Part shown: piece after piece, positions 99-50,010 of the stretch
How the letters are laid out: every line of letters starts with the position of its first letter
Position numbering within the stretch: the stretch's first letter is position 1
From: Narcine bancroftii
Taxonomy: Eukaryota
Assembly: GCF_036971445.1 (NCBI RefSeq)
Contig: NC_091471.1
Coordinates: forward strand, 261,082,001 to 261,146,000
Length of the DNA: 64,000 nucleotides
Reading direction: 5' to 3'
The notes under the pieces: generated by a model
What the model saw: the letters and a program-made list of their open reading frames with translations, nothing else
Told to the model about the DNA's origin: nothing
The model's database searches: none
Translations under genes and position numbers: made by a program

Positions 99-2121
99 CT
101 GCACGGAAACCAGATTATTAACCTCCATAGATCACAAATTACTGAGGGTCAGACGTGATTGACTCTGGAAATTTTCACAACATATCCTCAGCAAAATTGG
201 CATAATATTCTGACACCACAAGCAGGGGAATGACCACCTCCCAGAATGCAAATAATCCAAATATGACTTGGAACTGGCATAACATGAGACACTGATTCAT
301 GAGTGGCCCATATAGTTTCTTGATTTTAGTCTGCCATTCAACAAGATCACAATCAATCCTGTACTTTTCTCACCATTTCCTTAATTCCCTTAGCATCGAA
401 GGCAAATACATCCTTTCTTCTGTGAGGAGGCCAATTCTTCACACAGTACTTTAGGTGTGAATCTCAGAAAAGCTCCATAAAATTGCATCAAGACATTTTC
501 ACATTTGTATGCCAAGTTTCTTGCATTAAAAGTTGATAGACTATTCGTGTTTAAAATTGTTTGCTGTTCCTATGTTAACTTTCAGCATTTCATAAGGCCA
601 GCAATCAAAATAGGTGTACATCAAATAAAGAGACACAACAGTTTGCAAATCAGCTATCCTCTCTGTGGCCCTAATTTCAAGAAGATCAATTCTTTCCATG
701 TTACTGGCTCCCATAAATGGGAGTGAGATTGAAACTACTTCCATCAATGCTAGAACGCTAGGTATTTATAATCCAATATTCTTTTAAAATTATTCCGCAT
801 CCCAGAATGAGAACATGGGAAGTTGTCAGGCATTAATACCACTAACATCAGCATCAATAAAATTGTTATCTATGAATAAATTGACAAGAAAATACATTAT
901 TAGATAATAAACTAAATTATTGCCAATTATTCATTAGGATACAAATATTTTATTCTTACCTAGCCCCAATTTCAGCCTTAAATAGGTGCTACCCACCAAA
1001 TGTCAGTTTTCCCCCTCCCTCCCCTCAATGAATTTGTTGGGCTGAATCATCAAAAAATCCCCCCCAAAAGCACGGAATCTCAGTGGGACACATACAATCG
1101 CCAACCTCTCAGTATTCCCTTGAAGTGTACATCTATGTATGCAAACTGTGAGGTTGATACTTGGATGCCCATCTTTAATGATTATCCAAAAATCCTCTTT
1201 GGGAATTCCACACAGTGGACAGTGGCAGAGAAGTAGCAAGTCTGGATGTGAAATAGCACCCTGGTATCAGTTATTATGTAGGTGAACATTGGCCTAATGT
1301 CAAAGATACCTGAGCTCATCTGGTTTTTTTGGGCTATTTTTTGCTAAGAAAGTGAATCTTACAGCCAGGAACCATTTCAGAATGCCATAGTTGGGAGTTT
1401 TTGTTTGTAATTTATTTCTCAAACTAATAGAATTTCTAGTCATTATCTAAACATTGCAGAATAGACTTGAGGGGATTCTGAATACAAGTCATCACACATT
1501 TGGGCAAATATAAATTTGATACAATATTTACTCATACATTTTAAAAATGTGCAGAATTTGATTTGTCTACACATGTAATCATTTCCTAAACCCATAATCT
1601 CCAAAGATAGTTAAGTTTTATATATTAGTCTCACTTCTATAATGTGACATTTTATGCTATACTATCTTTAGTTTTCCCACACAAACAAGCTTTTACTTTA
1701 AATTACTGATAAAATATGCCAGACTTTTCATCTAACTACTAATCTACTGAGAAGCTCTAACTTCTGGTCTTCTTTTATTTGGAACAATGCTGTCCTAGTC
1801 AATCTGTTTCTAATCAAGTTCTAATTAAAAATTATATACACCCAGATATTCTGCCTTGCAGAAGTAACTGCACTTCCTGAATTTATTATCAATTAATTAA
1901 ATTCATGATGCAATATGTAATGTCATGTCATTAGCCTGCCTTACAAGCTCTTTACAATAATCTATGCATTTTCCTAATGGGTCTAAAAGCCAACAGTGTA
2001 AAAAACTTTACATATGACAGTTGAAATTATTGAATATCTTCATTAAGCAATTCAAAAGTTTAATTTTAAGCTTTTAGAATAGTCTGATTAAGCATTTCTT
2101 TACAGCAACTGTTATCCCTAC

Positions 2122-2309
2122 CTTTTTCTGCAGTCTCAACTTGTTCGAGGAACTCCGGTTGGAAATTCTCTGGTACATTATCCGTTCCCTCCAATGATGT
2201 TTTACACTCTGACCCAGCTTGGCTTGACTTGGAAGTATTTTCTTTACTAAACTGTGCCACTTTCTGCTTGTAATATTTGAACTCGTTGCTTTCTGCATCA
2301 TGTGAAAAT
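2122..2309 (-). CDS. SUGP2: SUGP2 exon: C-terminal half of SURP1 plus linker
   Basis: ttttaaag| (R)FSHDAESNEFKYYKQKVAQFSKENT...AEK G|gtaggg; phases 2 and 1 consistent with neighbours. Confidence 0.8.
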
Positions 2310-2971
2310 CTTTAAAATAAAGATTTTATTTTCAAAAATTAGGTCTTCCATTTCCTAGGCCGGACATTGACCAAAGATAAGAGGATAAGCAGCTATTAGC
2401 TAATATTGTACAACTTAGCTGTCAACATTAACACAATTGTCCCACTCTGCAGCAAATGTTTGGATGCTCCCCATGAGCACCAATGTGTTACTGTGCTGTA
2501 CCGTGTCCAAGTAGTTCTCATGTGTCTTTATGTTGGGACAAAATTTATCATTCTTTTTATTTTTAATAACTGAAGGCATAATAAAATGGTCGGGTTCAGT
2601 CAGAGACCCAAAAATGGAAGGGAAGTGAATTTAAGATTTTAAATGATTCTAAAGTTATAATTTTACTTTTAAAATGAGACGACGATTTAGACAAATTATT
2701 CACACAGACCCTATAATTAGTTTTCCCATTTACATTTGTAATGAGTTTAACATGGTTCGAGGATTCTGTATCATTTATATTATTATATACATTCATGATT
2801 GAGATCGATAGATTTTTCAACACCGTGGAAATCAAAAGATTGGCGGAGAGAACATCAAAAGATGGAATCAAACAGGAAAATTGAAAATACAAAATCAATT
2901 ATGATCCACCTGAACGGTACAGGAGGTGAAATGGCCGAGAAGTGATCCTTAATGTACATAATTGTGCTTAC

Positions 2972-3254
2972 CTATAATTAGGATCCTCTTTCTTGTACTG
3001 GATGACTGCTTTTTCTGCTGCCTCGCCCTTATCAGCAACAAACTTTGCCAATTTATGAATAACATTCTTGACCTGAGGATCTTCTGGGGGACAGATATTT
3101 TCTTCTCCTGCTGATGCCACATCATCTGCCATACTCTTGCTATTGCCATCAATGGATGCTGAACAGTTATCTGTCTTCTGTGTACTGCTGTCATCTGGTG
3201 CCAAAGAACCTACACCCGGCTGTGTGCCAGATTTGGAATCTGCTAAATTCAAAA
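2972..3254 (-). CDS. SUGP2: SUGP2 exon: N-terminal half of SURP1
   Basis: [43 protein letters not shown]|gtaagc; exact acceptor uncertain (three in-frame AGs). Confidence 0.8.
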
Positions 3255-3309
3255 CTTGAAACAAAAAGATAAAAATTCAAGCCAGATGTGCTTTTAATAA
3301 GGTAAACAA

Positions 3310-4030
3310 GAAAATCTGCAAATGCTCGGGTCCAGTGCAGCACAAAAGTGCTGGAGAAACTCAGTAGGTCACTCAACATCCACAGGAAGTAAAAGACAGT
3401 CGATATTTTGGGCTTGAGCCTTCCCTCAGGAGAGCAGAAAATCTGGCTGACACCTTAACAAGGTGAGGGAGGACAAGGAGGTGGAACATAGATTAACAGG
3501 TAAATGTTGGGAGGGTAGAAGAAAAGAAGCTGAGAAGTGATAGGGGGAGGAGGGCAAAGAGAAAAAGCTCTCTGATAGGAGAAAGAATGGAAGGGGGTAG
3601 GGAGCTGGAGAAAGGGAGACAGAGGGATGAAGTAAAGAGAGAAAACAGGGAAAGGGATTAATGTAAATTGGAGAAGTTGATATTGATGCTGCCTGATTAG
3701 AGACTGCCAAGCCAGAATATAACGTGTTGTTCCTCCAATTTGTGGGTGTACTCAACCTGGCAGTACATGAGACAATAGCAATTATGTGTAGAACTGAAGT
3801 GGTTTGGCCACTGGGAGATCTTTGCTGCTGCAGCAGAAGAGCAAAGGTGCACTTTGAAGCAATTTCCCAGTCTTCATCCAGTCTCCCTGATGTAGAGGCC
3901 GCACTGGGAGCACCGACTGCAGTAAAAGACCCTACAAATTCAGTGAAGTGTGGCTTCACTTGAAAAGACTGTTTGGGTCCCACAGTGTGAGGGAGGAGGT
4001 GCAAGTGCAACCGTAGCATTTCTTTCAAAG
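3310..4030 (-). mobile_element. Degenerate Penelope-like (GIY-YIG) retroelement remnant
   Basis: Decayed GPKQSFQV.. endonuclease-region peptide plus the typical aaatctgca(g)atgctg...gtgctggagaaactcag terminus. Confidence 0.55.
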
Positions 4031-4505
4031 AAGTGATTTCCCAGTCTACGTCCAGCCTCCCAATGGGAAAGCTAAAAGAGTCTCAAAACAGAAAGATCAA
4101 GGCAACAGGATATGGATGGGAAATGTCTCAGCTTTTTCAAAACAAGTGGATTTAAAATAATAAAGTAGTCACACTCTATGGGCATTCAGCCTTTTGGTAT
4201 CAAAACAGCAGGTGCAAAGGCTACATCGAGACTGTTGCAAATGTTGGAGCCACGAAGTGCCATGGAGGGCAAGAACTCGGCAAATATGGGATGAAACCTG
4301 TTCAATGACATCTGCAGCTTTGAGGGATTGCTGGATTAATGTATTTAAAAAAAAATCAAAACCATCCTCCTTAAGTTGTTATGTGATGGGATATTCAAAG
4401 TATTAAAAATCCTTCATAATAGCAATTGTGCATTGTAATCACAAATTAAATCTGTATATCTCGTTAAAAGATAGAAATTGTTACAAAATTATTTGGATTA
4501 CTTAC

Positions 4506-6446
4506 CTTTTGATGGCTTGATTGTTGCATCGTTTGTTGATTGTTCCTCTTTGATTAATGTATTGGAATTAGAAACCTGGCTATGTACAGGAGGGAGGGAG
4601 ATATGCTCCACTTGATTCCTCAGCTCATTTGTATATTTGTTCCCAAATAGCTCATTGTTTTCCAGATTCATGTAATACTCGTAGCTTGGAGCTACTGATA
4701 TCATTCCGGTTTTATTCAACAGATTCTTCCTTCTTTCTTGGCTGACAAATGCAAATGTTTGGCCAATAAATACTATTGACTGGCGGCAAGCCATGATCAC
4801 CTGCTCAAGTGTATTGGCAAGTTCATTAGGGGTCTCTGAGCTTTGCCCCTTGGAGCTCAACTCATGATTACTGCTTGCTACAAAAAGTGGGCCTACACAT
4901 TCCAATAGTCTGTTCTGAATTGCTTGCAAAAGGGGATCTTCTTGCTGTACAAGATCATCCAGCTCTTTCCTACATGTAATGATGTTCTTCTTTCTCAGCA
5001 ATGACACAAAAGAGTTATCTATCACAGGGCATGTGAGGCCGAAATGAGCTAATGACGATGACTGGCAGATATCCTGATGCTGCTGTGACATTAAGCACCG
5101 GAAAACTGAGGTTGCCTTAGAATATGTATCAGTGTTGGAATCAAACTTTTTTTTCATGGAATGATCAAGATCAACACTCTGAAAACCTGCCCATTTTATT
5201 ATTTGTTGCCCCAGTTCCATTTGATTACCTGCAGCAGTAGAAACATTTCCCAGTGATTGCAAATTAGAAGAGTCTGGGGACACATTTCTATAGGTGGCCA
5301 TTGGCACATTGGATACGGAAGACCCTGAAAAACCAGAGGGGGCTGTCCCTAGAAGCCCAGGGGCCGACTCTGTGAAAATAGGGGCTGTCCCTGGAAGGCC
5401 AGGGGCCACTCCCAGGAGCCCAGGAGCTATCCCTAGAAGGCCAGGTGCTACCCCCAAAAGACCAGGTGCTGTTCCAAGAAGGCCAGGGGCTCTCCCCAGA
5501 AGGCCACGTCGTGCAGGAAGCTTTGGACGCTTGAGCAAAGGTGCTCTTGTACTTTTAGGACCATGCAAAGAACGACCTCTTTTGGAAACATGCGTGCTTT
5601 TGTGACTACAACTCTGTTGGTTCAATTGAGGTTCATAATCCTCTGATCCTTCAAACCCAGGTGTAGATGTATCAGTCTGGTAAGCAGAAGAAATCATTTG
5701 AGCAGAGTCTCTAGATGGGTTGCTCCAGGATGCGTGAGAGGGATCATTTTTACTAGCTGCCTTACGCCGAGCATTATTAATAACATTACTTAATAACTTG
5801 TACAATTCTGCATCAGGTGCCTTTACAGGACTTCGGGATGAGGAGTGTGATTCCTGATCCCTAGTCTCATGACTAGGACTCCAGGATCGCCTGTGTGATT
5901 CTGAATGCCCTGACTTATCAGCAGGATTTTGTGACCTATTATATGAACCATGACTATCTCTGCCTTCAGGACTTTGGGATCTCCTATAGAATTGATAATC
6001 TCTTGAGTCATCAATTGCACTCTGAGATTTCCAATTATTCGAACTTCTGTACAATTCTGGTCGCTCTCGAGACTCATCAGGGCTCACCGATCTCCGGTAA
6101 ATCCCAGATCCTCTCCTAGCATCACTGTCACTTGAACTTGCCGGTCTTCCAAACAATCCTGAATCCCCACCAGATTCGGCAGAATTCCTTACTTCATTAT
6201 ATTGTGAACGCCGATTATCTCTGTCGACATGATCCGAGAAACTGTCTCGGGCTGAAGTAGAATAGGTAGCGTCATCATAATATCTTCTATTGTTTTCGGA
6301 ATGCATTTCTGCCTGATTGGACATATTCCTCCATCTCTCCGATCTGTGAGATGGAGATTCATACTCATCATAGGACAGCTCATCATACTGTGAATTTTCT
6401 TCATAAGATTCCCTGGGATATCGCCTGGATGCATAGTTGAGCATTT
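4506..6446 (-). CDS. SUGP2: SUGP2 large exon (1941 nt): RS/low-complexity N-terminus, GLLGxAP repeats, conserved helical domain
   Basis: 648-aa ORF; GQQIIKWAGF...VIDNSF...IQNRLL...CRQSIVFIGQTF...ELFG matches recalled human SUGP2 (GIEIIKWAGF...VDNEF...LQDRLL...CRKSLALLGQTF...TLFG); acceptor cattgaag|AA, donor G|gtaagt. Confidence 0.9.
5338..5505 (-). repeat. Coding tandem repeat, 8 x 21 bp (GLLGxAP heptapeptide)
   Basis: GLLGRAP GLLGTAP GLLGVAP GLLGIAP GLLGVAP GLPGTAP IFTESAP GLLGTAP. Confidence 0.95.
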
Positions 6447-9400
6447 CTTCAATGACAAAGGGAAGAAAGGAAGAAAAAAAGTGTTTAGCTTTTTTATTAA
6501 AATGGAAAAACTCTTAAAAAAAGTTGCAATCTATACTTCATGTAAAAGCTCATGTATTAGAGATCAGTTGGGCATGCTGATAACATCATTAAGATCAGGA
6601 AGACATGATGGGTTTTTTAAACCACATAATGCACCTGGCTGACTGCTTTTGGTAAATCTGGCCTAATCCAAGAGATGTAAGCAAGACAAACAGGATCATT
6701 TGTCCTAAAAATGGAGACATGTTGTCCTCCATAGGACACCAAGCAATAAGCATCCAAGAGAGAGTCGCATCTTTTCTCCATTGGGCTCAAGCGTGTATGG
6801 CGACTGCAAGTGTGAAGTGCCCTGGCATCATCCCGTTTGCTCAAACAGAGGAATGGAGCTTGGAGCAAACCAACTTTAGATAAAGATATCCACGAGTATA
6901 CTAAGCCAAGATACACTGGCCATTAGTACAAAGGATCGTTTCAGCAGACCAGATTCTGTATTTGCGCTCTCCTTTGTAATTCCCACAGGCAGCATGGTGT
7001 TGGTCCAGATGCAGAGGCGCATGTTGTTTCAACTCCAACAAGCTGATGTAGCTCAGCTTATTCTTTGACTAACAGCAGAATATGTAGCTCATGAAAGTCA
7101 TCTTCCAAACCAATCCATACAAGTAAGCCAAATTCAGGTCTGAGAAATTCATCGTCTTGAAATGCACACCAAAATTCTGCTTCCTCAAATCACTCAGTTC
7201 TTGCAATATCTCCTGGATCCACAATAAAAGCCAGATATGCTTTCAATAACATCAGTTGCATAAACAAGACCTGCATACAAGACTAACTGAAAATATAGAA
7301 TTCCAGTCTTTTGTGAGGTGGTACTCATTTACGTTTGTATGGTATTTTACATACCTCAGAATTTTTCAAAGCACTTTAGGATGAATTAATTGCTATTGAT
7401 ATGTAGGCTCTATTATAATGTGGGATCAACTGCACCAATTTTTTTCTAACAAGGCCTCAAAAACAACAAAGTGATAATTACCAGACAATTTGATTAATGT
7501 TGGTAGGATAAATAATGACCATAATTCCATTGAAAACTGCTCCAGGGATTTTTAAAAATCACTTTAGATTGCATATGGGCCTTGGATTAATATTACATTC
7601 GAAATGGCTCTTCCAATTGTACAATATCAAGGGTGTTGTGCATGAGGTCTATCAAGATCTTTGCAAAAGCTGCCATCAAGAAGGAAGACTGACTATTCTT
7701 GGCAGATTCATGTTTAGCTTGAGGAAATGTAACAATGTAGAACAAGCAAGATGAAAGAGTCAGATGAGGTACATGCAGACACGACTTCCAGAGACAAGTT
7801 ACTAGACCTTCCTGACGCCTGGAGCAAGATGTCCTTTGGGCATAAGCAACCGTCCTTCATCTGATCATTAAAAAGGACTTGAATTCAAATGGAACTTCCT
7901 TAATCTTAGGATTTTCAACAAAGTTTTGCAGACACTGAAATATTTTTAGTATAATCACTACTTTAATGAAGGTAGTCACTTCTGTAAAGAAGGAAATGTG
8001 GTAGCCATTTTGTGTGCAACGTTAACTTGCTGCACATTTAGACCAGCAATCACTTTAATGTTTCAAACTGAACATATCTGTAACAATGCATCCACTGTAT
8101 TAGTTACTTGCCTCCCCACTGTGAGCAATCAGTATCAACATATCTTGGTATATTTTCAAGGAAATCATTTGATCTACGAAACATGTTTACTGTGACTCTT
8201 TATAAATCTATCCACTTCACTGGATCACACTAATTGTAAAGTTAAGTAACTTTCCCGATGAAAACACAAACAGCCTACCTTAGCCTGTCAATAAAAGAAA
8301 AGTCTGAAGAAATAAAATAAAACAAAGAAAGTTCAACAAATAGATTAAAAATTGAAAGAGTGTGAAAAAGAAAAAAGGGAGAGGAGAGATGGGGAGGGGA
8401 GAGAAAGTTTTAAATATGACAATTGCTCCTGCCTATATAATTTGTTCCAGCAGTAAGTTTCAGACTCTTACCAACTTAAGAGTAGAAAGTTGTTTCCTGC
8501 TTTCCCTTCTAATCCTTTTACCAATAACTTTAAATATATACAGTATTTAATTTAGACCCCTCAAAATTTTCCTCTCAATCTTCTCTACACTGTTCTCAAC
8601 CTGTGGCCAAACTACTGCACACAGTTAAGGAGAATGACCTTGATTCTCTTACAATATATTCCTTGGCTAATAACATCATCATCATCCTTCCCTTTTTAAC
8701 CCATTGAACTGTCCAAGGCACCTTTGTTCCATCACACAATTATATATCCTCCCATTAATTATACATTCCCTTGCATTGTTACATCTCATGCTTCGAATTA
8801 AAATCAATTTCCCATTTTTCTCTTGAAGTGAACATCATCATTCTGCAGTCTAATGTTATCCTCAGTAGTTCATTAAAACAGACCCCTTTAAAAAATTAAT
8901 TCAGACAAAAAATTGTAAAAAAGGTGATTAAAATAAATTATTCTGAATCAATCAGGAAATCTAATTTAATCGCTTTAAAAATTGTTTCATTTTCTTGGCC
9001 TTCAGAAAAAAACATTTGGTCTCATCACTTTCATAATTTTATACACCTCAATTAAATCTCCCCTTTGCCTCCAAAGAAAACAACTCCAGCCTATCCAATG
9101 TACGCACTGATAAAACTTTCTGGTTCTTGTAACATCCTTGGAAATCTATAGACTCTCCAATATAATCACATCTTTCATGAAATTTGGTCACCAAACTGTA
9201 CACAAGCTGTCACCTAAGCTTGTTGCATACAATTCCAGCATAACATCTCTAGTCTCAGGACAAAAGTCATAACTTGTTTCCTGTCATCAAAAACTTTCAA
9301 GAAATGTATTCCTGTATTTTTTTTAAAAAAGGATATTTATCCTACAGGCACCCACCAAATCTGGCATTCTCCTCTTCAGCAAGTTGAGCCCCAAGCTTGA

Positions 9401-9669
9401 AATCAAAGGAGAAATTATTTTAAAAGCTCTCCTGTAGCTGCCTTTTTGAGGTATGGCAATGAACTACTAGATAACCAGCATGTGCTAAAAGTAAAGAATA
9501 AATCTAACAATGCGCATGTTCAAATTGAAATTTCATATAGTTCTCTAAGCAAAATATGACTTTCCTATGTTTCTTTTTAAGCACTAAATGGCAAGTACGA
9601 GACTTTTATTTTCAGGCAATTTTTTAACAAAATTTTGAGAGAAATCTTCATTTGGAAGGCATCAAGAAT

Positions 9670-9978
9670 TTCATTTACAAAAATCTACATCCCATTCAGA
9701 CCTGTTAAAAGATAGCCAAATAGGTCTGACACAAAATGCTTGCCACACTTCCCCATATAATTGTATATTATTACAATGAAAATATCAATAAGCTTTGGAT
9801 AATTTTCACTTATTTGAATTCAAGCACTGATTAAAGAGGTTCATTTTCTAAAATCCAAAACAGTTTTATTTCTAAGACCACTGGTGCTGAAATTTATACC
9901 CTAAAGGCACCTGGGCTGGTCAGTTCCACCAACCACTGTCATGAGCAAGCATCACACTCCACAGAGATCAGCTATCAA
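9670..9978 (+). repeat. Inverted repeat arm A (309 bp) in SUGP2 intron 1
   Basis: Reverse complement of 14263-14571; two mismatches seen by eye. Confidence 0.95.
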
Positions 9979-11795
9979 TGTACTGTTTCCTTTGAAAGGA
10001 AAGGATCTGGAAGAAAAACCTCATGGATAGTCTGAAAGAAAAGGCTTTCCTCTGAAAATACAATACCCACATGTCCATCTTTCATCATAGATTATTGCTT
10101 TACAAAGGAATATACTGTTCAGCAACAGGTCATTTACTTGTTAATAACCTCTTATACATCATAACCTCTCTCCATCCATCAGCACATCCTTCTTTGTTTT
10201 CCATCCATATGCACTGCTCTATCATTCCCTCAAATGCATGGAACATTTGTCTCAATTATTCTTTATGATAGGGAGTACTGGTCTCAATGAAGTGTAATGG
10301 CACATATTTCAGATTTTCAACTTGTGTCCCATTGAACTGCCAAAATGATTTGGTAATATTATTACTGCTTCTGTGTTGTGCTTGATGAAGCAATTCATAG
10401 CTGTATAAAACTGAAAATAAAGAACAGTTCCACATCAATAGAAAATACTCCAATTCCATTAACTCAATTATTGACTTTAAGACTTACAATTCATGCAATA
10501 TATTTAAACATTGGATATTAAACATCAATGACTGTACAAGTCAGGCACTGGGTGTTTTTTTGAGAGAAGTTCTTCAAGAGCATTTTTAAAATACGAAACA
10601 GTCGCAAAAAAGATAAGCCTAAATAAACATAATTTATCTTATTAAAGACTTAGATGCAACTTGATATCAATCATGGTTGAGGATATCACTACAATGGAAA
10701 CCATTTTAGCCTAAGAATAATCTTACTGCACAATGAATATATAGTGTGATAGCCTTCAACAGAGTCCAACTCCAATTTTGACTATACTGGATGTGAAATT
10801 TACATCTTAAAATAAAGTCAATGATTGCATCCATAAAACAGTTATTAGAGAAAGAATCATCCATGAAAAGAACAAAGTTTACCACACACAAAGGATTTCA
10901 TCAAATTAAGCTGCAAAACATCTTTTATATGCACAATAGATGCTAATGGTCTTAAGAGGTTTTCAATTGCTCTGTTCACCTGATTGAACATCAAGGCCGT
11001 TAACGGAGAGCATTTTAATGAAGTTCTTATAAATCCAACGATGATAATTGTATTTAATCCAGGATAAAGCATCATTTGGTTACATTTGGAATGAGTAGTG
11101 GTCTCAGGACCTTTAATCCACCTGGATTACCTTGGAGCCTTCAGGAATAGAAAATCTCCTGAATACATCTACAGGCAACCTGGGATGAAAGGTGCAGTGC
11201 TGTTTAAAATAATATAAATTATCATATTCTTTAAAGCATTTCAATTTTTAATGTTATATTGGATTTGCGAGGAAGGAAAGTGCCTTTGCAGGCAAGAGGT
11301 TATATATACACTGTAATATATATCCAAACATAATTAGCAATCCAAGTTAGTAATACGAGACCTTTCTCCAAATTGTCCCAGTCACCCGGTACAGCGTTGA
11401 GATCCTCTCCCCACAGAGACCCCAAACTAAAGGGCTGCCGGTCCTTTTGTCAACACGTGAAGCCTTCCTGGCTCGTTATTAAAAGGTCAGGAATACAAAG
11501 GACTTATTGGGCCATGTCCACCTCCGGGGCCGATAATCAAGGGTTTGCTGAGCCCTGGCTACACAGGTTTTGGCGAGCTGGATCTCTCCGCAACGCTGGG
11601 CCTCGGTTGCCCCTGATTACCATGTACAGGCCCAGCTTGTCATCAGATCCGCTTCGCAAAGATGCTGGAGAGCCAAGTCACACACAACATCCATCACAGC
11701 TGCAGCCTTTTATGACATCTTGCGTGCTAAACATGAAGCCTGATCGTTCTTCCCCAAGCACCCTCCCCCTCATCCCCCACCTTAGCCCCACAAAC

Positions 11796-11817
11796 CTGGA
11801 CAAAACCTCTCCTCCAT
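11796..11817 (-). CDS. SUGP2: Predicted SUGP2 first coding exon (MEERFCP+G)
   Basis: gcaATGGAGGAGAGGTTTTGTCCAG|gtttgt; phase 1 joins in frame to AA ATG CTC at 6446; lies in the CpG-rich promoter. Additional intervening exons are not excluded. Confidence 0.55.
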
Positions 11818-12123
11818 TGCTGTTATCACGTCACTTCCGAGACTACCGGACGTAGTCTCGAACAAATTAATATTTCAAAATGCTACTTCGTGTGTCGATT
11901 AATATAATATTAGATAATATGATCTAATACTCACAAGAACAAGTTGCTGATATTTCCATATATGAAACATAAATGGTATAGTTTTATATTCTATTTTTTG
12001 CCATGAGGGTGAATATGACCCAAACTACATTTCCCACGACCCCGCGCGGAACTTCAGCAGCTTCCGGTCGTGTGACCGTTATGCCGCTGTTATCCGGTAG
12101 TGACATCAGAGGACTATGAAGCT
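11818..12123. promoter_or_regulatory. Bidirectional promoter shared by SUGP2 and SUGP1
   Basis: CpG-rich flanks; ZNF143/THAP11-type ACTACATTTCCCA at 12024-12036; ETS-like CTTCCG at ~11834 and 12061; CRE-like TCACGTCA at ~11826. Confidence 0.75.
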
Positions 12124-12145
12124 ATGGCGATGGAAGGCGATACAG
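12124..12145 (+). CDS. SUGP1: SUGP1 exon 1 coding part (MAMEGDT+G)
   Basis: ATGGCGATGGAAGGCGATACAG|gttggt; phase 1 joins GA AAA ACT at 17034. Confidence 0.7.
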
Positions 12146-14262
12146 GTTGGTGTCGTGGTGATTGTTTGGGACGGAAAGGGCGAGTTAATTGGAATTTCGG
12201 GGTTGTTGGAGAGAGGGAGAGAAAAAACTCTCCCAGTAACCTATTTTTTTGTGATTAAAGGTGAAGGGATTATTCGGAGTTCTTATTTTGCCCTGAAAAT
12301 CCAGACAATTTGGTTAACTGCAGTTATGGAGAGGGGAGTATCAAACATATTTGATCATAATTAACAGCTAAATCTATATTCATTCGCTTAAAGTTATTTT
12401 CCTTCAGCACGCCCCCTTTTACTGAGCCTATGTTGTTGATTAGGAACTGGTCCCAGTCATTTGTTATCTTCAGAGGAGAGAGATCACGCCTGTGGTCGTT
12501 TTCTTCACAGAGAAAAAAAACATCAGCCAGTTTCACGTGAAAATGTTTTTAAATCTAGAATGCAGCTTCGTTGTTCCTCCCCACTCCCATGGTCAAACGT
12601 AGATAGCAGAGTTGGTTACATTTAATTACAGACATTTTTCCAAAAATTTTGTTTTTGCTTACAGGTTCTTGAAGGTTATATATTTTGCCGAGGTGGCATT
12701 TGCCTCTCTGTGCAATGAAACTTTGAATCTGTAACTGTTTAGACGAAGTTACATGTCCAGATTGTCAGGAGCGGGCATTTTCACTTTATAGTATCTACCA
12801 CATCGAATTTTTGTCGGATGCAAGAAAACTTGGTGTTTTACAGGCACATTGTGCTCATGCATTCTCCTTGAAAGAACTGTCTGATTAGTTGAGATTTCCT
12901 GATCAAAATCTTTTTATGTTATTTTCTTTTAAAGTCTTATCAGATTCTCTCTTAAAAGTTTCTCTTGAAACTGCATTTCAGATCACAGTTGTTTAATGTC
13001 CTCTAGGTCTTTAGACATTGTTGTAATTCTGGGGTGCTTTGATTTCTAATCTGCTTTTAAAGTAAAGAGATATAACTACAGTTCACATTTGAGACTTCTG
13101 TGAGCTTTCATCCCAAGAATACTCTCCGGCAAGGAAAACTTGACCAACTTTCCCAGTTTTTTTTATCCACTGGTGATTCCAGTAACCCTCACTTACTCCA
13201 AGGTTATTCCATTCTTCCAAAAATATGATGCTTCAAAATTAATACAGTATTCTAAGCTTTATTCAATCTTTTAGAAGCTTGGTGTGGATTCTTAACTCCT
13301 GATTCTTGAGACCTAGGTCTCATTTTGTAAAGTCTCTGACTAGTCACAAAATAGCCATAAACCACATTCTTGCATCATACTGAGAGTACCCAAAAAAGGT
13401 TGCTTCAAGGGATGTCTTTTCCTCTGTTGCTTTCTGTTACCAAATATCTACATATACATGGTGCTACATTTTTTCAGAATATAGTGTTACATCCCCCAGG
13501 AGTTTCTTGGTATACTTTGATTTCTCATTATACTCAAAACTTTGGAAACCCAATATCTGCAAAATCGTGTTCATCTACCACTATGTTCCTGCTGCTCTAT
13601 TCTGGATTATGATTAAGCAATGCCTTGACATTTTAAAATTTTCTTCATTTTCAAATCATTTTATTGTTTTACCTGTCCCTATCTTTGTAATCTCCATCAG
13701 CCCTATAGTTCTGCATTCTTGCAATTTGGGTTTCTTGGATATACATAAATTTAATCGATCCAGCATTGTTTTCAACTTCAAATGTTCTGAAATTTGAATG
13801 TCTCTTTTAAAACATCTTTGTCTCTCTTACTTCTATAAGATACTTAAAACCAGCTTTCTTTAACCAATCTTTGACAGGCATTTATCGCCCATTCTTAATT
13901 ACCTGTTACACTAACATCAAATTGGGTAAGGATTTTGAATTTCCTTATCTGAAAGTAGCCTGGTGGATTTCTATGAAACTTATTCTTTTACATTCATCAT
14001 TATTAATACATTCTTAAAGTATTTTTATTGTCTAACATATAAATCCTACTAACAAAATCTTCTAATATAACAAATTACAGGTACATATACATATCAATTA
14101 ATATAAATGTAAATGGAAAAATCTATCCATATTTGTTTATTAACAATATTTCTTAAAAATAATTCTGAATAGTAAACAACATTAGACAATCCCTTGGTCT
14201 AAACAAAGGGTAAATCCTGTCTGATGATATATGACAACATAATTAAATCCATATTTAACAAG

Positions 14263-14571
14263 TTGATAGCTGATCTCTGTGGAGTGTGATGCTTGCTCAT
14301 GACAGTGGTTGGTGGAACTGACCAGCCCAGGTGCCTTTAGGTTATAAATTTCAGCACCAGTGGTCTTAGAAATAAAACTGTTTTGGATTTTAGAAAATGA
14401 ACCTCTTTAATCAGTGCTTGAATTCAAATAAGTGAAAATTATCCAAAGCTTATTGATATTTTCATTGTAATAATATACAATTATATGGGGAAGTGTGGTA
14501 AGCATTTTGTGTCAGACCTATTTGGCTATCTTTTAACAGGTCTGAATGGGATGTAGATTTTTGTAAATGAA
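14263..14571 (-). repeat. Inverted repeat arm B (309 bp) in SUGP1 intron 1
   Basis: Reverse complement of 9670-9978. Confidence 0.95.
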
Positions 14572-15050
14572 GGTTACCGTAAAGAAAAGGATGTAAAGGT
14601 ACGAACCAAATAATGACCTTCAGAAACTAGACAGAGAATCACCGGAGTATCCAAACTTCTTAAATCTTCCAATCATGATAATATTCTATGAATGGCCCCA
14701 CATCTTTTCAAATTGAAGCTTTCTATCTATAATGTTGTGTCTCATTTTCTTCAAGTTGTAACCAATGTGTATGAGTAGGTTAAGAGTCATCTTTCCATTT
14801 CATTAAAATTGCTCGCCTGGCTATCAACGTGACAAAAGCTAAAACTTTCTCCTGAGATGCAGACAGAGATATGTCCGGTTCACTAGAAAAATCAAACAAG
14901 GCAATTAAAGGGCATGGTTCTATTTTGCTCTTAAAAGTTGTTGATAAAGTTTTGAAAATTTTTTCCCAAAATCTTCCTAAATTGGGGCACTCCCAAAACA
15001 TGTGAATCAACGAAACTTCAAAAATTTTACACTTCTCACATTTTACTTTA

Positions 15051-15975
15051 CTTTGGCTTGGCTTCGCGGACGAAGATTTATGGAGGGGGTAAAAAGTCCA
15101 CGTCAGCTGCAGGCTCGTTTGTGGCTGACCAGTCCGATGCGGGACAGGCAGACACGATTGCAGCGGTTGCAAGGGAAAATTGGTTGGTTGGGGTTGGGTG
15201 TTGGGTTTTTCCTCCTTTGCCTTTTGTCAGTGAGGTGGGCTCTGCGGTCTTCTTCAAAGGAGGCTGCTGCCCGCCAAACTGTGAGGCGCCAAGATGCACG
15301 GTTTGAGGCGTTATCAGCTCACTGGCGGTGGTCAATGTGGCAGGCACCAAGAGATTTCTTTAGGCAGTCCTTGTACCTTTTCTTTGGTGCACCTCTGTCA
15401 CGGTGGCCAGTGGAGAGCTCGCCATATAATACGATCTTGGGAAGGCGATGGTCCTCCATTCTGAAGACGTGACCCATCCAGCGCAGCTGGATCTTCAGCA
15501 GCGTGGACTCGATGCTGTCGACCTCTGCCATCTCGAGTACCTCGACGTTAGGGGTGTGAGCGCTCCAATGGATGTTGAGGATGGAGCGGAGACAACGCTG
15601 GTGGAAGCGTTCTAGGAGCCGTAGGTGGTGCCGGTAGAGGACCCATGATTCGGAGCCGAACAGGAGTGTGGGTATGACAACGGCTCTGTATACGCTTATC
15701 TTTGTGAGGTTTTTCAGTTGGTTGTTTTTCCAGACTCTTTTGTGTAGTCTTCCAAAGGCGCTATTTGCCTTGGCGAGTCTGTTGTCTATCTCATTGTCGA
15801 TCCTTGCATCTGATGAAATGGTGCAGCCGAGATAGGTAAACTGGTTGACCGTTTTGAGTTTTGTGTGCCCGATGGAGATGTGGGGGGGCTGGTAGTCATG
15901 GTGGGGAGCTGGCTGATGGAGGACCTCAGTTTTCTTCAGGCTGACTTCCAGGCCAAACATTTTGGCAGTTTCCGC
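15051..15975 (-). mobile_element. 5'-truncated RTE-clade LINE
   Basis: FTYLGCTIS...RLAKANSAFGRL...RLPKIVLYGEL...CNRCNRVC; near-identical to 45162-46722. Confidence 0.92.
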
Positions 15976-17033
15976 GATCAACATCTACATAAAAATGTGG
16001 ACATGTTTATTCTATGTACTGCCTTAAATTTTAATAAACAATGCCTTGCACAAAATGAGGAATCATTATCAAGCTAAGAATAGAGTACAATCTTCATCTA
16101 AAAATGTTATATTCCAATCACATTCTTAATTGTTCATAATTCCAGCCATTAAATCCAATAAGTCGTTATAAATGCATGATATTAATCCACCCTGAACAAA
16201 CCGTAAATTAAAAAATATATCAAGAATATTTGAGGAAAATAAGTAAGTTTAGACTGAACAAAATGTCTAACTTGTAAATATATTTTAAAAAGTCTATTAG
16301 AAAGATTAAATTTAGCTGACAATTGTTCTGAAGAGGCAAAGTTATCAAGAACAAAAAGATCTTTATAACTTTTAATACCTAATCTTTACCATTCCTTAAA
16401 GGCTGTATCTAACACAGATGGCTGAAGAAGATGATTATCTATAATGGGACTAGCAAGAGAAAAACAGTAACCAAAAATTCTAAATTTCTTTAACTCATTA
16501 GATTTGGTTATTTCTTCATACATATTGCAGGGAAAACAACCACATATAAATAAATCCCATCTTCAAAAGACTAAAAGGAATGGGGGACTATCACTTCCAA
16601 ATTTTAGATTTTATTATTAATATGATTAATATGTGTTATTTACTTTTATTATTACATTTTGATACATAATCAGTGAATCGCCCTTCTTGGGTAGAAATGG
16701 AACTGGTTTTCTAAAAAAATCATTGATGTCGGCAATTTTAACTCTTTTCCTTTTCTAATTGATACATCATTATTAATACTTATTTTTATCCAGATTTATT
16801 TATTTGCATTTAGTTTCTGTAGTGGGATTTGAACCATCTCCAGTTCATGGTTAATAGTCCAGTAACATAACTGCAATGATAGTGCACCACATGGATTGAG
16901 TTTATTGGAGGTCGGAATATTTTGCATTGTGCTCCTACTGACTGCAGAAGACTGATCAGTATTGTGCCTTTTTTTTTACTTCTTAAGTATCTTCTGCTTT
17001 TTTTTTTGGATTTTGTCTTTTTCCTCATTGCAG

Positions 17034-17235
17034 GAAAAACTGGTGGGACTCTCAAATCCAGTGGTGAGCGCTCTTTTAGTCTGGAACGTCTAGGTTCTTC
17101 CAACAGACCAAATAAACTGTATGTGAACCTAATGAAACAAGAGGAGCTGATAGCACAGAAGAAAAAAGAAATTGAGGCCAAAATGGAAAAGGCGAAGAAG
17201 GGCAGTTTTACAAAGCTGCAAACAGCACCTGTTCA
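17034..17235 (+). CDS. SUGP1: SUGP1 exon 2
   Basis: cattgcag|GKTGG...NLMKQEELIAQKKKEIEAKME...CA|gtaagt. Confidence 0.92.
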
Positions 17236-17629
17236 GTAAGTGCTAGTAAATGCTTCCAATTGTTAGTATTTGGGTCACTTCACATCTGACTAATTTATAT
17301 AATTTGCAATGGATAGAGTATTATGTCTGGAGCATTCATGGGATTCTTGAATATTTGGTAACGTGTTAAATTAGCATCACCCTTACTTTAAGGTTGTGCT
17401 GTGTGACCTGAGTTCCTTCAGCACTTTGGTGTATTGCATTACACTCACAGCATCTGCAGACTTTCTTGTTGAAATCCCATTTCCTCTTTCACACCCTCTT
17501 AGAATTTTATTCATTTCACCTCTTTTTCTAAATTCATGAGAATAGAGGCACACCCTATTCACTCTCTCCTTTGATTAACATGATATTTCAGGAACCTATC
17601 AGAATATTCCTGTAATTTTAAATTAAATT

Positions 17630-17858
17630 TTTAATTTAGACATACTGGCCCTTTTGGCTCACAAGTCCATGCCACCCCAAATACCCCTAATTGACTTACA
17701 CCCCCAGTAGCTTTTTCAACAGTGGGAGGAAACTGGACCACCCGGAGGAAACAGATGCAGATGGAGAACATACAAATTCCTTACAAACAGTATGGGATTC
17801 GAATCCCGGTTGCTGGCACTGTAACAGCGCTGAGCTAACCGCTACACTAACCATGCCA
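17630..17858 (-). mobile_element. tRNA-derived SINE
   Basis: Reverse-strand tRNA head with A/B boxes (tggcatggttagtgtagcggttagc...gggattcgaatccc) and shared SINE body. Confidence 0.65.
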
Positions 17859-18674
17859 CATATTTTTTTCAGTACAAAGACCTAGACACTAAACAATACC
17901 TTGTGTGTTGACACCAATGCCCTGTCTAATTGTAGTATGAGATCTTTACTCTGAAATCCCTTCTCCTGGGGGCTGGAAAATCCTTCTATTTCTCCATATT
18001 TTAAAGACCAAGATCAAAAGCTTCTTTGATAGATGTTACTGAATATTAAAGCTCAATAAATATTATTGATATTGCAATCTTATAGGATTTGGAGGAGGCA
18101 ATTGAGGTCAAATGGCCTAATCCTACATTCCCTTAATATTAATTTAAATTAAATCATTTTGCAATAAAAGCCAATGTGTTGTTTGCTTTCCAAATAATCT
18201 GCGGTACCTGCATATTATCCAACAGTAACTTTGAAGCAGGAGCAACCTATTCCATATATGGACACTTATATTTCTCAATCTTTTGCCAATTTTTTTTCAG
18301 CACCTGTTATTTCTACCATTATTTTTCTCCCAACTACACTGTTTTTGTCTATTTACTTTTCTATACTCTTTGAACCTGCATCTCATCATTAAATTGATAT
18401 TTTCCACTCATCTTTGTGATGTTGGCAATCTTGGAAGTATTACTTTTGGTCTCCTCATCGAGATTATTGATTTTGATTATGAACGGTTAGGTGTATGAAC
18501 AGTTATGTCCTGACCCTGATCCCTGAAGTACTCCATTGGTTACTGCCTGTCCCACATCCTCCTGGATTTTTGTCTTCTGGAAAGCATCTGCTTAATTCCT
18601 CTAGCAATTTTGTATTTGCCATTATAAATGTTCCTGTCCAGACTTGCATTTGCTCTCGATAGCATTTTAATTTT

Positions 18675-43030: not shown

Positions 43031-43989
43031 TTTCGGTCTCCTTACTTTTTTTAAAAATTTTTATTTTTCACACTATAAGCCACATTGATCAAGATACATA
43101 CATTTTCCTTTTCAAATATATACAGTGTCGTTTTCTCCCCCCTCCCTCTTCCCCTCCCACCCTCCCTACCTCCCCTGCCATTCATTTAACATTCAGAATC
43201 TAAGATACATTAAACCCGTCAAACAATGTTGTCACTCAGTAAAAATAAACAAGAAATTCAACTGAGTCAGTTCTTTTCATTCTCTTCTCCGTCATTTTAG
43301 GCGGTAGATGTCCCCGATAGGTTTTCTCTATTATGTTTTATGTATGGCTCCCATATTTGTTCAAATATTTTAATATTATTTCTTAAATTATATGTTATTT
43401 TTTCTAATGGAATACATTTATTCATTTCTATATACCATTGTTGTATTCTCAAGTTATCTTCTAATTTCCAGGCTGACATAATACATTTTTTTGCTACAGC
43501 TAGGGCTGTCCTAACAAATCTTTTTTGTGCACCATCCAAATCAAGTCCAAATTCTTTGTTTTTTATGTTACTTAGGAGAAAGATCTCTGGGTTTTTTGTT
43601 ATATTGATTTTTGTGATTTTATTTAATATCTGGTTTAGATCTTCCTAAAATTTTTTCACTTTCTCACATGTCCAGATTGCATGAATTGTTGTTCCCATTT
43701 CCTTTTTACAGCAAAAACATCTGTCAGATACTGTTGGGTCCCATTTATTTAACTTTTGAGGTGTAATGTATAGCCTGTGTATCATACGTAACCTCATGTT
43801 TATTGTATTTCTCATAGTTCCAGAGCATAACTTCTCCCATGTTTCCTTCTTTATCATTATGTTTAGATCTTGTTCCCATTTTTGTTTAGTTTTACCATTT
43901 GTTTCCTCATTCTCCTTTTCTTGTAGTTTAATATACATGTTTGTTATAAATTTTTTGATTATCATTGTGTCTGTAATCATATATGATGA

Positions 43990-44938
43990 TGGTGGTGGTG
44001 AATTGGATTAGTAAATATGCAGACAATACTAAGATAGGTGGAATAGTGGATAATGAAGAAGGTTTTCAAGGATTGCAGAGGGATTTGGGCTGCTTAGAAA
44101 AATGGGCTGAAAAATGGCAGATGGAATTTAATGCTGATAAGTGTGAGGTGCTTTATTTTGGTAAGAAGAATCAGAATAGGACATACATGGTAAATGGGAG
44201 AGCATTGATGAATACAGAAGAGCAGAAAGATTTAGGAGTAACGGTACCTCGTTCCCTGAAGGTAGAAACTCACGTGAATAGGGTGGTGAAGAAGGTTTTT
44301 AGTATGCTGGCCTTTATCAATCATTGCATGGAATATAGGAGTTGGGAGGTGATGTTGAGATTGTATAAGACGTTGGTGTAGCCTAATTTGGAGTTCTGTG
44401 TGCAGTTCTGGTCGCCTAATTATAGGAAGGATATAAACAGAGTGGAGAGAGTGCAGAGAAGGTTTACCAGAATGTTACCTGGGTTTAAGCATCTAGAGTA
44501 TAGGGAGAGATTGGACAGATTAGGTCTTTATTCTTTGGAGCGTAGAAGGTTGAGAGGGGATTTGATAGAAGTATTTAAGATTATGAAAGGGATAGACAGA
44601 ATGTATGTGGATAGACTATTTCCATTAAGAGGAGGAAAGATTAAAACAAGAGGACATGAGTTAAGAATTAAGGGGCAGAGGTTTAGAGGTAACATGAGGG
44701 GGAACTTCTTTACTCAGAGAGTGGTAGCCGTGTGGAATGAGCTTCCGGGAGAAATAGTGGCGGCGGAGTCAATTGTATTATTTAAGAAAAGGTTGGACAG
44801 GTATATGGATGAGAAGAAGATGGAGGGTTATTGGCATTGTGCAGGGAGGTGGGACTAGAAAGGGGTGTTTGGTTCGGTGCGGACTAGAAGGGCCTAATGG
44901 CCTGTTTCCGTGCTGTAATTGTTATGTTATGTTATGTT
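43990..44938 (+). mobile_element. 5'-truncated CR1 LINE nested in the L1
   Basis: KYADNTKIGG...EFCVQFWSP...RRLRGDLIEVFK...FFTQRVV; (gttat)n tail. Confidence 0.9.
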
Positions 44939-45161
44939 AAAATTACTTCCCTCTGGTAACCTCAGACTGCTTCCCAATTTGTCCTTCAAGTAGGATTTCA
45001 GTTGGTAGTATGCCAACACTGTATCATGAGTCATATTATATTTATCATTCATTTGTTCAAAGGATAATAATTTATTTTCCGAAAAGCATTTTTCTATTCT
45101 ATTGATCCCTTTTTTCTCCCATTCTCTCTCTATTGTAAAAGGGATTAGCTGATTTTGAGTC

Positions 45162-46722
45162 AGGGGAATCACGTTGCTCTCCATTGCAGGCAAAATCTTC
45201 GCTAGGATTCTACTAAATAGAATAATACCTAGTGTCGCCGAGAATATTCTCCCAGAATCACAGTGCGGCTTTCGCGCAAACAGAGGAACCACTGACATGG
45301 TCTTTGCCCTCAGACAGCTCCAAGAAAAGTGCAGAGAACAAAACAAAGGACTCTACATCACCTTTGTTGACCTCACCAAAGCCTTCGACACCGTGAGCAG
45401 GAAAGGGCTTTGGCAAATACTAGAGCGCATCGGATGTCCCCCAAAGTTCCTCAACATGATTATCCAACTGCACGAAAACCAACAAGGTCGGGTCAGATAC
45501 AGCAATGAGCTCTCTGAACCCTTCTCCATTAACAATGGCGTGAAGCAAGGCTGTGTTCTCGCACCAACCCTCTTTTCAATCTTCTTCAGCATGATGCTGA
45601 ACCAAGCCATGAAAGACCCCAACAATGAAGACGCTGTTTACATCCGGTACCGCACGGATGGCAGTCTCTTCAATCTGAGGCGCCTGCAAGCTCACACCAA
45701 GACACAAGAGAAACTTGTCCGTGAACTTCTCTTTGCAGATGATGCCGCTTTAGTTGCCCATTCAGAGCCAGCTCTTCAGCGCTTGACGTCCTGCTTTGCG
45801 GAAACTGCCAAAATGTTTGGCCTGGAAGTCAGCCTGAAGAAAACTGAGGTCCTCCATCAGCCAGCTCCCCACCATGACTACCAGCCCCCCCACATCTCCA
45901 TCGGGCACACAAAACTCAAAACGGTCAACCAGTTTACCTATCTCGGCTGCACCATTTCATCAGATGCAAGGATCGACAATGAGATAGACAACAGACTCGC
46001 CAAGGCAAATAGCGCCTTTGGAAGACTACACAAAAGAGTCTGGAAAAACAACCAACTGAAAAACCTCACAAAGATATGCGTATACAGAGCCGTTGTCATA
46101 CCCACACTCCTGTTCGGCTCCGAATCATGGGTCCTCTACCGGCACCACCTACGGCTCCTAGAACGCTTCCACCAGCGTTGTCTCCGCTCCATCCTCAACA
46201 TCCATTGGAGCGCTCACACCCCTAACGTCGAGGTACTCGAGATGGCAGAGGTCGACAGCATCGAGTCCACGCTGCTGAAGATCCAGCTGCGCTGGATGGG
46301 TCACGTCTCCAGAATGGAGGACCATCGCCTTCCCAAGATCGTATTATATGGCGAGCTCTCCACTGGCCACCGTGACAGAGGTGCACCAAAGAAAAGGTAC
46401 AAGGACTGCCTAAAGAAATCTCTTGGTGCCTGCCACATTGACCACCGCCAGTGGGCTGATAACGCCTCAAACCGTGCATCTTGGCGCCTCACAGTTTGGC
46501 GGGCAGCAGCCTCCTTTGAAGAAGACCGCAGAGCCCACCTCACTGACAAAAGGCAAAGGAGGAAAAACCCAACACCCAACCCCAACCAACCAATTTTCCC
46601 TTGCAACCGCTGCAATCGTGTCTGCCTGTCCCGCATCGGACTGGTCAGCCACAAACGAGCCTGCAGCTGACGTGGACTTTTTACCCCCTCCATAAATCTT
46701 CGTCCGCGAAGCCAAGCCAAAG
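45162..46722 (+). mobile_element. RTE-clade LINE with an uninterrupted 498-aa RT ORF, nested in the L1
   Basis: LPESQCGFR...FVDLTKAFD...GVKQGCVLAP...LLFADD...C-terminal CNRC..H zinc finger; 3' gccaagccaaag. Confidence 0.95.
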
Positions 46723-49700: not shown

Positions 49701-49924
49701 GGGCAACCACATCTCCCCTCTCCATTTGGATTTGCGAATTCACTCGCAAGCGTCAACTGATTTCGCAGTGACCGTACCTCCTCCCCACCCAGCCCCCCCC
49801 CCCAGAAAAGATTTTAATTTTCATATACAACAAAGGTCACTCTCTTAATTCCCTCCTTACTTCCTCTCTTCCCTTTCTTTCCTTATTAATTCTTATCTAT
49901 ACTCTATATATTTTCTCTTAAATG

Positions 49925-49955
49925 CATATATACACATGTACACACATATATACAT

Positions 49956-50010
<55 letters not shown>

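What the first reader, a model, noticed from the sequence alone, without database searches (positions are those of the whole stretch)
9670..14571. 309-bp near-perfect inverted repeat brackets the SUGP2/SUGP1 promoter and both first exons: potential invertible cassette
Seen: 9670-9978 and 14263-14571 are reverse complements (2 mismatches), centred at ~12120. One arm lies in intron 1 of each gene, in the same orientation relative to each transcript. The arm is not recognisable as a transposon, and arm B interrupts an old L1 remnant, so it looks like a recent templated copy. Both predicted first coding exons are 22 nt, phase 1, with similar donors (CAG|gttggt, CAG|gtttgt). Inference: recombination between the arms would flip the 4.3-kb spacer and swap promoter halves and first exons between the paralogues while keeping both in frame.
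Basis: partly seen in the sequence, partly recalled or inferred. Interest (0 to 1): 0.7.

Follow-up and report, generated by a model that had tools for sequence, protein, structure and literature searches.

The report
Recent inverted copy beside shared promoter
In an electric ray, a 309-letter piece of one gene's first intron was recently copied backwards into its neighbour's first intron, so the DNA between them could in principle flip and swap the two genes' starts, but no flip was seen and it looks like an ordinary repair accident.

Summary
The inverted repeat is real: 9670-9978 and 14263-14571, 309 bp, 2 mismatches. In a DNA run the arm is one 309-nt contig at 1.9x flank depth, with contigs breaking at its ends: two copies, not an artefact or a repeat family. 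SUGP2 and SUGP1 are head to head, and both 22-nt phase-1 first exons are confirmed by annotated proteins of this species (Narcine bancroftii by protein label) and are conserved across rays and sharks. A related organism (about 92% identical) holds arm A once, with its present flanks. Other copies of the LINE around arm B join across it. So arm B is a recent local templated insertion, and the assembled orientation is the ancestral one. A flip would keep both genes in frame but change only about 7 N-terminal residues and the promoter side. No flipped allele or swapped transcript was seen, and the contig data could not have shown one. The longest perfect match is 156 bp, the window holds longer young inverted pairs, and an exon-1/promoter swap between divergent paralogues is already known (human CTRB1/CTRB2). 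Verdict: neutral insertion creating a weak, untested inversion substrate.

The parts
9670..9978 (.). Arm A: the original, ancestral intron-1 sequence of SUGP2 (donor of the copy)
   Evidence: in organism C one contig spans 9030-10621 across the arm and both flanks at single depth
14263..14571 (.). Arm B: recent inverted copy of arm A, inserted in the 3' untranslated part of a LINE in SUGP1 intron 1; possible 2-nt and 6-nt junction microhomology, no target-site duplication
   Evidence: (joints 14264->14566, 14222->14615)
9979..14262 (.). 4284-nt spacer that would flip; carries the shared promoter and all known 5' exons of both genes
11796..11817 (-). SUGP2 first coding exon part, 22 nt, phase 1
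   Evidence: own isoform P0025; same peptide type in 27 of 53 scorable SUGP2 proteins
12124..12145 (+). SUGP1 first coding exon part, 22 nt, phase 1
   Evidence: P0013; same peptide type in 25 of 27 scorable SUGP1 proteins
11818..12123 (.). CpG-rich bidirectional promoter with a THAP11/ZNF143-type motif at 12024 and ETS- and CRE-like motifs at 11833-11839 and 12101
   Evidence: CpG o/e 1.0-1.4 at 11801-12300; motif matches; THAP11 motif from PMC3627581 passages; ETS/CRE names recalled
11362..11755 (-). Probable alternative non-coding 5' exon of SUGP2, donor at 11362
   Evidence: inferred from contig ends in run X5 (11362-11755 depth 24.7; exon-2 contig ends at 6449); GT donor; no in-frame ATG
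10138..11013 (-). Further annotated alternative 5' coding exons of SUGP2 (donors 10980, 10366, 10138), all phase 1
   Evidence: isoforms P0023, P0001/P0026, P0027/P0028 mapped; not seen as breaks in run X5
4506..6446 (-). SUGP2 exon 2 (acceptor 6447/6446, own in-frame ATG at 6444)
17034..17236 (+). SUGP1 exon 2
14000..16700 (-). Degraded L1-type LINE 3' end (ends approximate), interrupted by arm B and by a young RTE-type copy at 15051-15975
   Evidence: repeat depth; C-terminal Cys/His stretch resembles a zf-RVT-bearing ORF at 43648-44007 (blastp E 0.002; Pfam); no Pfam hit of its own; L1 and RTE labels recalled

Best explanation
Arm B is a one-off, recent, local templated insertion. During repair or restart of DNA synthesis inside an old LINE in SUGP1 intron 1, the polymerase switched to the opposite strand 4.3 kb away, copied about 300 nt of SUGP2 intron 1 and switched back (FoSTeS x2 / MMBIR or end-joining with a templated patch). 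Shown: two copies, arm A ancestral, arm B inside a LINE whose halves flank it, assembled orientation ancestral, recent age. Inferred: the template-switch mechanism (microhomology is tentative) and neutrality. As a by-product the locus now has a short inverted repeat around a bidirectional promoter. Ectopic recombination could flip it at a low rate and, because both introns are phase 1 since before rays and sharks split, the product would be in frame, exchanging about 7 N-terminal residues, the 5' UTRs and the promoter sides. It is not a switch with a function.
For: Two-copy depth and contig breaks at arm ends in X1; same break at 9699 in X5, another sample code. Organism C: one contig over 9030-10621, arm bin depth 20.6 vs contig 21.3; a 3744-nt contig colinear over 10915-13873 with no listed piece beyond it. 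LINE copies join across arm B: 14264->14566 (2 contigs, X5) and 14222->14615 (X5, X10). Arm divergence 0.65% vs 8.0% to organism C, ratio 0.08 (95% range 0.01-0.29). No duplication of target longer than 3 nt, no poly(A) tail. Longest perfect stretch 156 nt, between the 134 and 232 bp over which mouse intrachromosomal recombination fell 20-fold (PMC2583991 passage). 4 longer inverted pairs at 96-99.7% lie in the same window (7 pairs of 200 nt or more at 90% or more in all). Only 6 of 319 human inverted duplication pairs not flagged before showed both orientations (PMC13629690 passage).
Against: Microhomology rests on 2 contigs of diverged LINE copies with 27 nt on the short side and unknown letters between, and aligners overextend. 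Only one outgroup was informative. The X1 arm contig carries arm A letters at both mismatches and its depth fits 0, 1 or 2 real differences about equally given noise (26.3, 24.8, 23.4 expected), so the arms may be more alike than assembled. Close repeats recombine with little homology (alpha-globin, 5 kb apart, under 50 bp), validated human inversions have repeats down to 140 bp, and repeat-mediated ones recur often. The 6-of-319 figure excludes pairs already known to invert, so it is biased low. The arms sit almost symmetrically about the promoter (1818 and 2118 nt from the donors), which this account treats as chance.
Confidence: 0.8

Rival explanations
1. The origin is as above, but the segment has since flipped at least once and both orientations segregate (or recur), giving alleles with swapped first exons and promoter sides, as with human CTRB1/CTRB2.
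For: 99.4% identity at 4.3 kb; swapped joins are in frame, 5 of 5, so a flip could be tolerated; precedent and recurrence of repeat-mediated human inversions; short close repeats can recombine.
Against: Assembled orientation is ancestral; repeat is short and young; the 24 repeat-mediated inversions of PMC6748972 had repeats of 654 bp or more; low base rate for unflagged pairs. No direct test was possible.
Confidence: 0.09
2. The repeat is the scar of a past inversion made by staggered breaks, which duplicated the 309 nt at both breakpoints and has already swapped the first exons in this lineage.
For: Inverted duplications at inversion breakpoints are a known scar (recalled; only search listings touch it); the geometry would fit.
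Against: Organism C has the outer flank, arm A and the inner flank on one contig; both halves of the LINE flank arm B; each gene keeps the first-exon peptide its orthologues have across rays and sharks.
Confidence: 0.03
3. The arms are an old remnant of the inverted duplication that made SUGP1 and SUGP2, kept alike by gene conversion or repeated flipping.
For: The genes are paralogues (31% over 278 aa, 50% over 78 aa), head to head, with matching first-exon length and phase.
Against: Single copy in organism C; arm B lies inside a LINE; no similarity outside the arms; promoter halves align no better than shuffles (53 of 300 reach the score); exon bodies share 5 of 17 nt.
Confidence: 0.03
4. The arm is a young transposon or the second copy is an assembly artefact.
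For: The window is rich in young repeats; X1 may be the source sample and is not independent.
Against: Depth in the arm A bin is 25.1 at an 80% likeness threshold, against 268-9990 in LINE bins; contigs break at the arm ends in X1 and at 9699 in X5; no Rfam match; no unusual fold (z 0.67). The tool warns that contig depth is not a copy number, so this is a within-run ratio only.
Confidence: 0.03
5. A regulated, recombinase-driven somatic switch that selects which promoter half drives which splicing factor.
For: Symmetric layout around a shared promoter; in-frame products.
Against: Lineage-specific and very young; the arm is ordinary intron DNA, with no conserved short crossover site recognised; neighbours are SURP/G-patch genes and LINE remnants; products would differ by about 7 residues.
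Confidence: 0.01

Closest known systems
Human CTRB1-CTRB2 inversion (HsInv0030; PMC6145291, PMC6748972, PMC4591017, passages read)
   Same: Divergently transcribed paralogues; a flip exchanges promoter and exon 1 and rebuilds complete genes; main effect expected on expression ratio.
   Different: There the genes are 97% identical, the segment is 16.6 kb and both alleles are common and typed. Here the paralogues are distant (31-50% protein identity in the aligned parts), the repeat is a new 309-bp intron copy, and no flipped allele is known.
Class 2 templated sequence insertions (TSIP; PMC5110952, part 1 of 4 and passages read)
   Same: Few-hundred-bp copy of non-repetitive DNA, donor intact, no target-site duplication or poly(A), microhomology-type junctions; experimental sizes 73-414 bp.
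   Different: TSIP donors are described as distant and the insertions as polymorphic; here the donor is 4.3 kb away and polymorphism is untested.
FoSTeS x2 / MMBIR / serial replication slippage (PMC2583991, passages read)
   Same: A segment from nearby is incorporated in inverted orientation with 2-5 nt microhomology at the joins.
   Different: No further complexity or copy-number change is seen here; junction microhomology is only tentatively placed; end-joining with a templated patch cannot be told apart.
Repeat-mediated (NAHR) polymorphic inversions (PMC6748972, PMC13629690, passages read)
   Same: Inverted repeats over 90% identical bracket a unique segment.
   Different: 309 bp is at the short end (654 bp-24.2 kb in one set, from 140 bp in another), and the defining feature, both orientations, has not been observed.

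Membership tests
Local templated insertion (FoSTeS x2 / class 2 TSI-like) | Donor copy intact and ancestral | tested here: met
   organism C contig spans arm A and both flanks at single depth
Local templated insertion (FoSTeS x2 / class 2 TSI-like) | Acceptor flanks were contiguous before the insertion | tested here: met
   other LINE copies join 14264->14566 and 14222->14615; paralogues, not an empty orthologous allele
Local templated insertion (FoSTeS x2 / class 2 TSI-like) | No target-site duplication of 5 bp or more and no poly(A) tail | tested here: met
   best duplication 3 nt; no A tract at either end
Local templated insertion (FoSTeS x2 / class 2 TSI-like) | Microhomology at the junctions | tested here: inconclusive
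   2 nt and 6 nt implied by one joint row from 2 diverged contigs; chance estimate 0.002 or less ignores aligner overextension
TSIP in the strict sense | Donor from a distant genomic region | tested here: not met
   donor is 4.3 kb away
TSIP in the strict sense | Presence/absence polymorphism in the species | not testable with these tools
   one further sample code (X5) shows the same contig break; no population data
NAHR polymorphic inversion, CTRB1/CTRB2 type | Inverted repeats over 90% identical at both breakpoints | tested here: met
   99.35%
NAHR polymorphic inversion, CTRB1/CTRB2 type | Breakpoints in introns of divergent paralogues with exchangeable first exons | tested here: met
NAHR polymorphic inversion, CTRB1/CTRB2 type | Both orientations exist | not testable with these tools
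   all 10 listed runs are short-word contigs, which cannot phase a 309-nt repeat; neither short first exon was covered in the RNA-like run
NAHR polymorphic inversion, CTRB1/CTRB2 type | Uninterrupted identity long enough for efficient recombination | tested here: inconclusive
   156 nt longest run against 134-232 bp (mouse), 300-500 bp (human meiosis) and under 50 bp (alpha-globin)
Transposable element (SINE/MITE/LINE fragment) | Many related copies in the genome | tested here: not met
   arm bin depth 25.1 vs 13 unique and 268-9990 in LINE bins; no third copy in the window
Site-specific invertible DNA switch | Dedicated recombinase and short conserved crossover sites | tested here: inconclusive
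   neighbours are SURP/G-patch genes; longest stop-to-stop frame in the spacer 173 aa, not scanned against Pfam; an enzyme acting in trans was not sought

The most novel reading that the evidence does not exclude
A single repair accident turned an ancient head-to-head pair of splicing-factor paralogues into a flippable unit, and electric rays now carry both orientations (recurrent or balanced), with SUGP1 and SUGP2 exchanging first exons, a set of alternative 5' exons and promoter sides while staying in frame: a natural case of a promoter-swap inversion being born from a 309-bp templated insertion rather than from paralogue homology.
Probability: 0.08. Interest if true: 0.6.

Novelty: new member of a known kind. 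Interest (0 to 1): 0.22.

Why it matters
As it stands it is a clean, datable example of how a short inverted repeat arises from unique DNA, and it happens to sit where a flip would be tolerated. If both orientations were found, the locus would let one measure how short and how young a repeat can be and still drive inversion in a vertebrate germ line, and would give a natural test of how each side of a bidirectional promoter sets the expression of two essential-looking splicing factors. The outcome itself (promoter and exon-1 exchange between divergent paralogues) is already described in humans.

Tried and rejected
No whole genome is held, so no genome-wide count. Rfam: 0 matches in 6000-18000 at E up to 1. 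Arm fold not better than shuffles, 77 of 100 fold as well. No listed run is on record as RNA; 4 of 10 listed runs were laid, on 5600-15040 only, so SUGP1 exon 2 was outside the stretch. Run X9 gave only low-depth pieces nearly identical to the window and was uninformative. The joint table was filled by LINE rows (15 shown, 100 hidden), so no splice joint was displayed. Two joints linking the LINE to the arm A side (X10 14699->9520; X5 9337->14614) were set aside as chance matches of LINE copies to AT-rich DNA: the first agrees with the LINE's own continuation in the loose-end table, the second conflicts with an unbroken X5 contig 8962-9398; not tested further. No swapped N-terminus in 0 of 80 scorable proteins (11 of 91 lacked the anchor motif), but genome-based annotation cannot show one. 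Pfam gave nothing for the LINE remnant frames. Earlier findings of this scan: nothing. Paper searches 'SUGP1, SUGP2, paralog' (3 papers, 2 listed, unrelated by listing) and 'SUGP1, SUGP2, head-to-head, shark, bidirectional promoter, Narcine', 3 of 6 terms (10 papers, none mentioning SUGP1/2) found no description of this locus; the library lacks most subscription papers, and no supplements were read.
Full report
Observation. The repeat is as described: 9670-9978 and 14263-14571 are reverse complements over 309 nt with two mismatches (9742/14499 and 9899/14342), sharp ends and a 4284-nt spacer. No third copy lies in the window. It has no Rfam match and no unusual fold. It is not the only such pair: 7 inverted pairs of at least 200 nt and 90% identity lie in the window, 4 of them longer and 96-99.7% identical, made by young retroelement copies; the best (15051-15975 with 45798-46722, 925 nt, 99.7%) brackets all SUGP1 exons after the first.

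Genes. The minus-strand gene is SUGP2-like and the plus-strand gene SUGP1; the SUGP1 protein matching the window 100% over the 67-aa query is labelled Narcine bancroftii. The SUGP2 type of peptide precedes exon 2 in 27 of 53 scorable SUGP2 proteins and the SUGP1 type occurs in 25 of 27 scorable SUGP1 proteins from rays and sharks; 11 of 91 proteins lacked the anchor and were not scored. In 11 of 11 species with both accessions listed the two genes share a contig length, and in 8 of 11 their accession numbers are adjacent, so the pairing and the exon phases are far older than the repeat; orientation in those species was not seen. Contig ends in run X5 point to a further, non-coding exon with its donor at 11362 (inference). 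The 306 nt between the start codons are CpG-rich and hold a THAP11/ZNF143-type motif at 12024 (motif from PMC3627581 passages), an ordinary housekeeping bidirectional promoter.

Is it real and two-copy? Four of 10 listed runs were laid on 5600-15040 at 80% likeness; all are contigs. In X1 (DNA, possibly the source sample) the arm is one contig of exactly 309 nt at depth 24.8, the flanking contigs are at 13.1-13.2 and stop 30 nt inside the arm, and the arm A bin totals 25.1 while LINE bins reach 268-9990. In X5, a different sample code (RNA is a guess; whether it is another animal is unknown), a contig also ends at 9699. The tool warns that depth is no copy number; used as a ratio within one run, together with the break points, it indicates two copies, neither an artefact nor a repeat family.

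Which arm is new, and has the segment flipped? Organism C (run X10, about 92% identical) has one contig over 9030-10621, crossing arm A and both of its present flanks, with the arm bin at 20.6 against 21.3 for that contig: one copy, same order. A second contig is colinear over 10915-13873 and has no listed match beyond it. Arm B sits in a degraded LINE 3' end: flanking bins are deep, and contigs of other family copies join 14264 to 14566 (X5, 2 contigs) and 14222 to 14615 (X5, X10). The L1 label is recalled; its support here is a Cys/His stretch resembling a zf-RVT-bearing frame elsewhere in the window. So both halves of the LINE still flank arm B, and arm A keeps its ancestral neighbours. Arm B is therefore a plain insertion and the assembled orientation is the ancestral one; a past inversion with staggered breaks is contradicted. 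Arm divergence is 0.65% against 8.0% to organism C, a ratio of 0.08 (0.01-0.29) if no conversion occurred.

Mechanism. There is no target-site duplication beyond 3 nt and no poly(A) tail. The joint row implies 2-nt and 6-nt overlaps between LINE and arm ends, which would be unlikely by chance (0.002 or less), but it comes from two diverged contigs with 27 nt on the short side and should be taken as tentative. The pattern fits two template switches to a nearby inverted template (FoSTeS x2 / MMBIR, PMC2583991 passages) or a templated patch at a break (class 2 insertions, PMC5110952 part 1 of 4 and passages). These cannot be told apart here. It fails strict TSIP membership because the donor is local and polymorphism is untested.

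Could it flip? All 5 coding first exons tested join both second exons in frame, so a flipped allele would make near-normal proteins differing by about 7 residues, with exchanged 5' UTRs, alternative exons and promoter sides. Against a meaningful rate: the longest perfect run is 156 nt, where two mismatches cutting 232 to 134 bp lowered mouse recombination 20-fold and human meiotic estimates are 300-500 bp; the 24 repeat-mediated inversions in PMC6748972 had repeats of 654 bp or more; 6 of 319 unflagged human inverted pairs showed both orientations (PMC13629690, biased low). For it: repeats 5 kb apart recombined with under 50 bp of match, validated inversions have repeats from 140 bp, most repeat-mediated ones recur, and the two mismatches are not confirmed by the X1 contig, whose depth fits 0-2 differences. 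No direct test was possible: short-word contigs cannot phase a 309-nt repeat, neither short first exon was covered in X5, the joint table was cut (100 rows hidden), and 0 of 80 swapped N-termini in genome-based annotation is a weak negative.

Comparison and novelty. [quoted passage not shown] It is not a member of that class until both orientations are seen, and it differs in that the repeat is a new intron copy rather than paralogue homology. Two paper searches found no description of this locus (open-access library only, no supplements read), and the scan's earlier notes held nothing.

Verdict. Observation confirmed; interpretation partly supported. Best reading (0.8): a recent neutral templated insertion that incidentally makes a weak inversion substrate. 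A segregating flipped allele is not excluded (about 0.08) and would deserve about 0.6. New member of a known kind; interest 0.22.

Noticed in passing
window 15051-15975 and 45798-46722: Two copies of a very young RTE-type retroelement form a 925-nt, 99.7% inverted pair 29.8 kb apart that brackets all SUGP1 exons after the first; a longer and purer inversion substrate than the reported repeat. Further copies at 33757-34497, 50583-51444 and 55487-55836.
   Followed up: partly
From recall only, in human they are not neighbours and each shares a promoter with another gene (MAU2, ARMC6), which would imply an old inversion that exchanged bidirectional-promoter partners. Not checked.
   Followed up: partly
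window 10138-11959 (- strand): SUGP2 has at least five alternative 5' exons in the spacer, several with phase-1 coding starts; one annotated isoform (P0001) starts at about 11959, inside the intergenic promoter. The 11362-11755 exon holds 7 ATGs, none in frame with exon 2.
   Followed up: partly
window 5338-5506: A 21-nt tandem repeat (about 7-8 copies) inside SUGP2 exon 2 encodes a heptapeptide Gly/Leu/Pro-rich repeat.
   Followed up: no
window 6446-6449: The SUGP2 exon-2 acceptor is an AAG, the less common form (recalled), and is followed at once by an in-frame ATG that 11 of 53 scorable homologues use as their annotated start.
   Followed up: partly
run X9 on window 5600-15040: A run labelled as another organism holds low-depth pieces almost identical to the window (0-1 differences in 151-210 nt), which looks like carry-over rather than a relative.
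   Followed up: no
window 43059-52000: A near-complete, degraded L1-type element on the minus strand (endonuclease, reverse transcriptase and zf-RVT hits) is interrupted by several younger insertions.
   Followed up: partly
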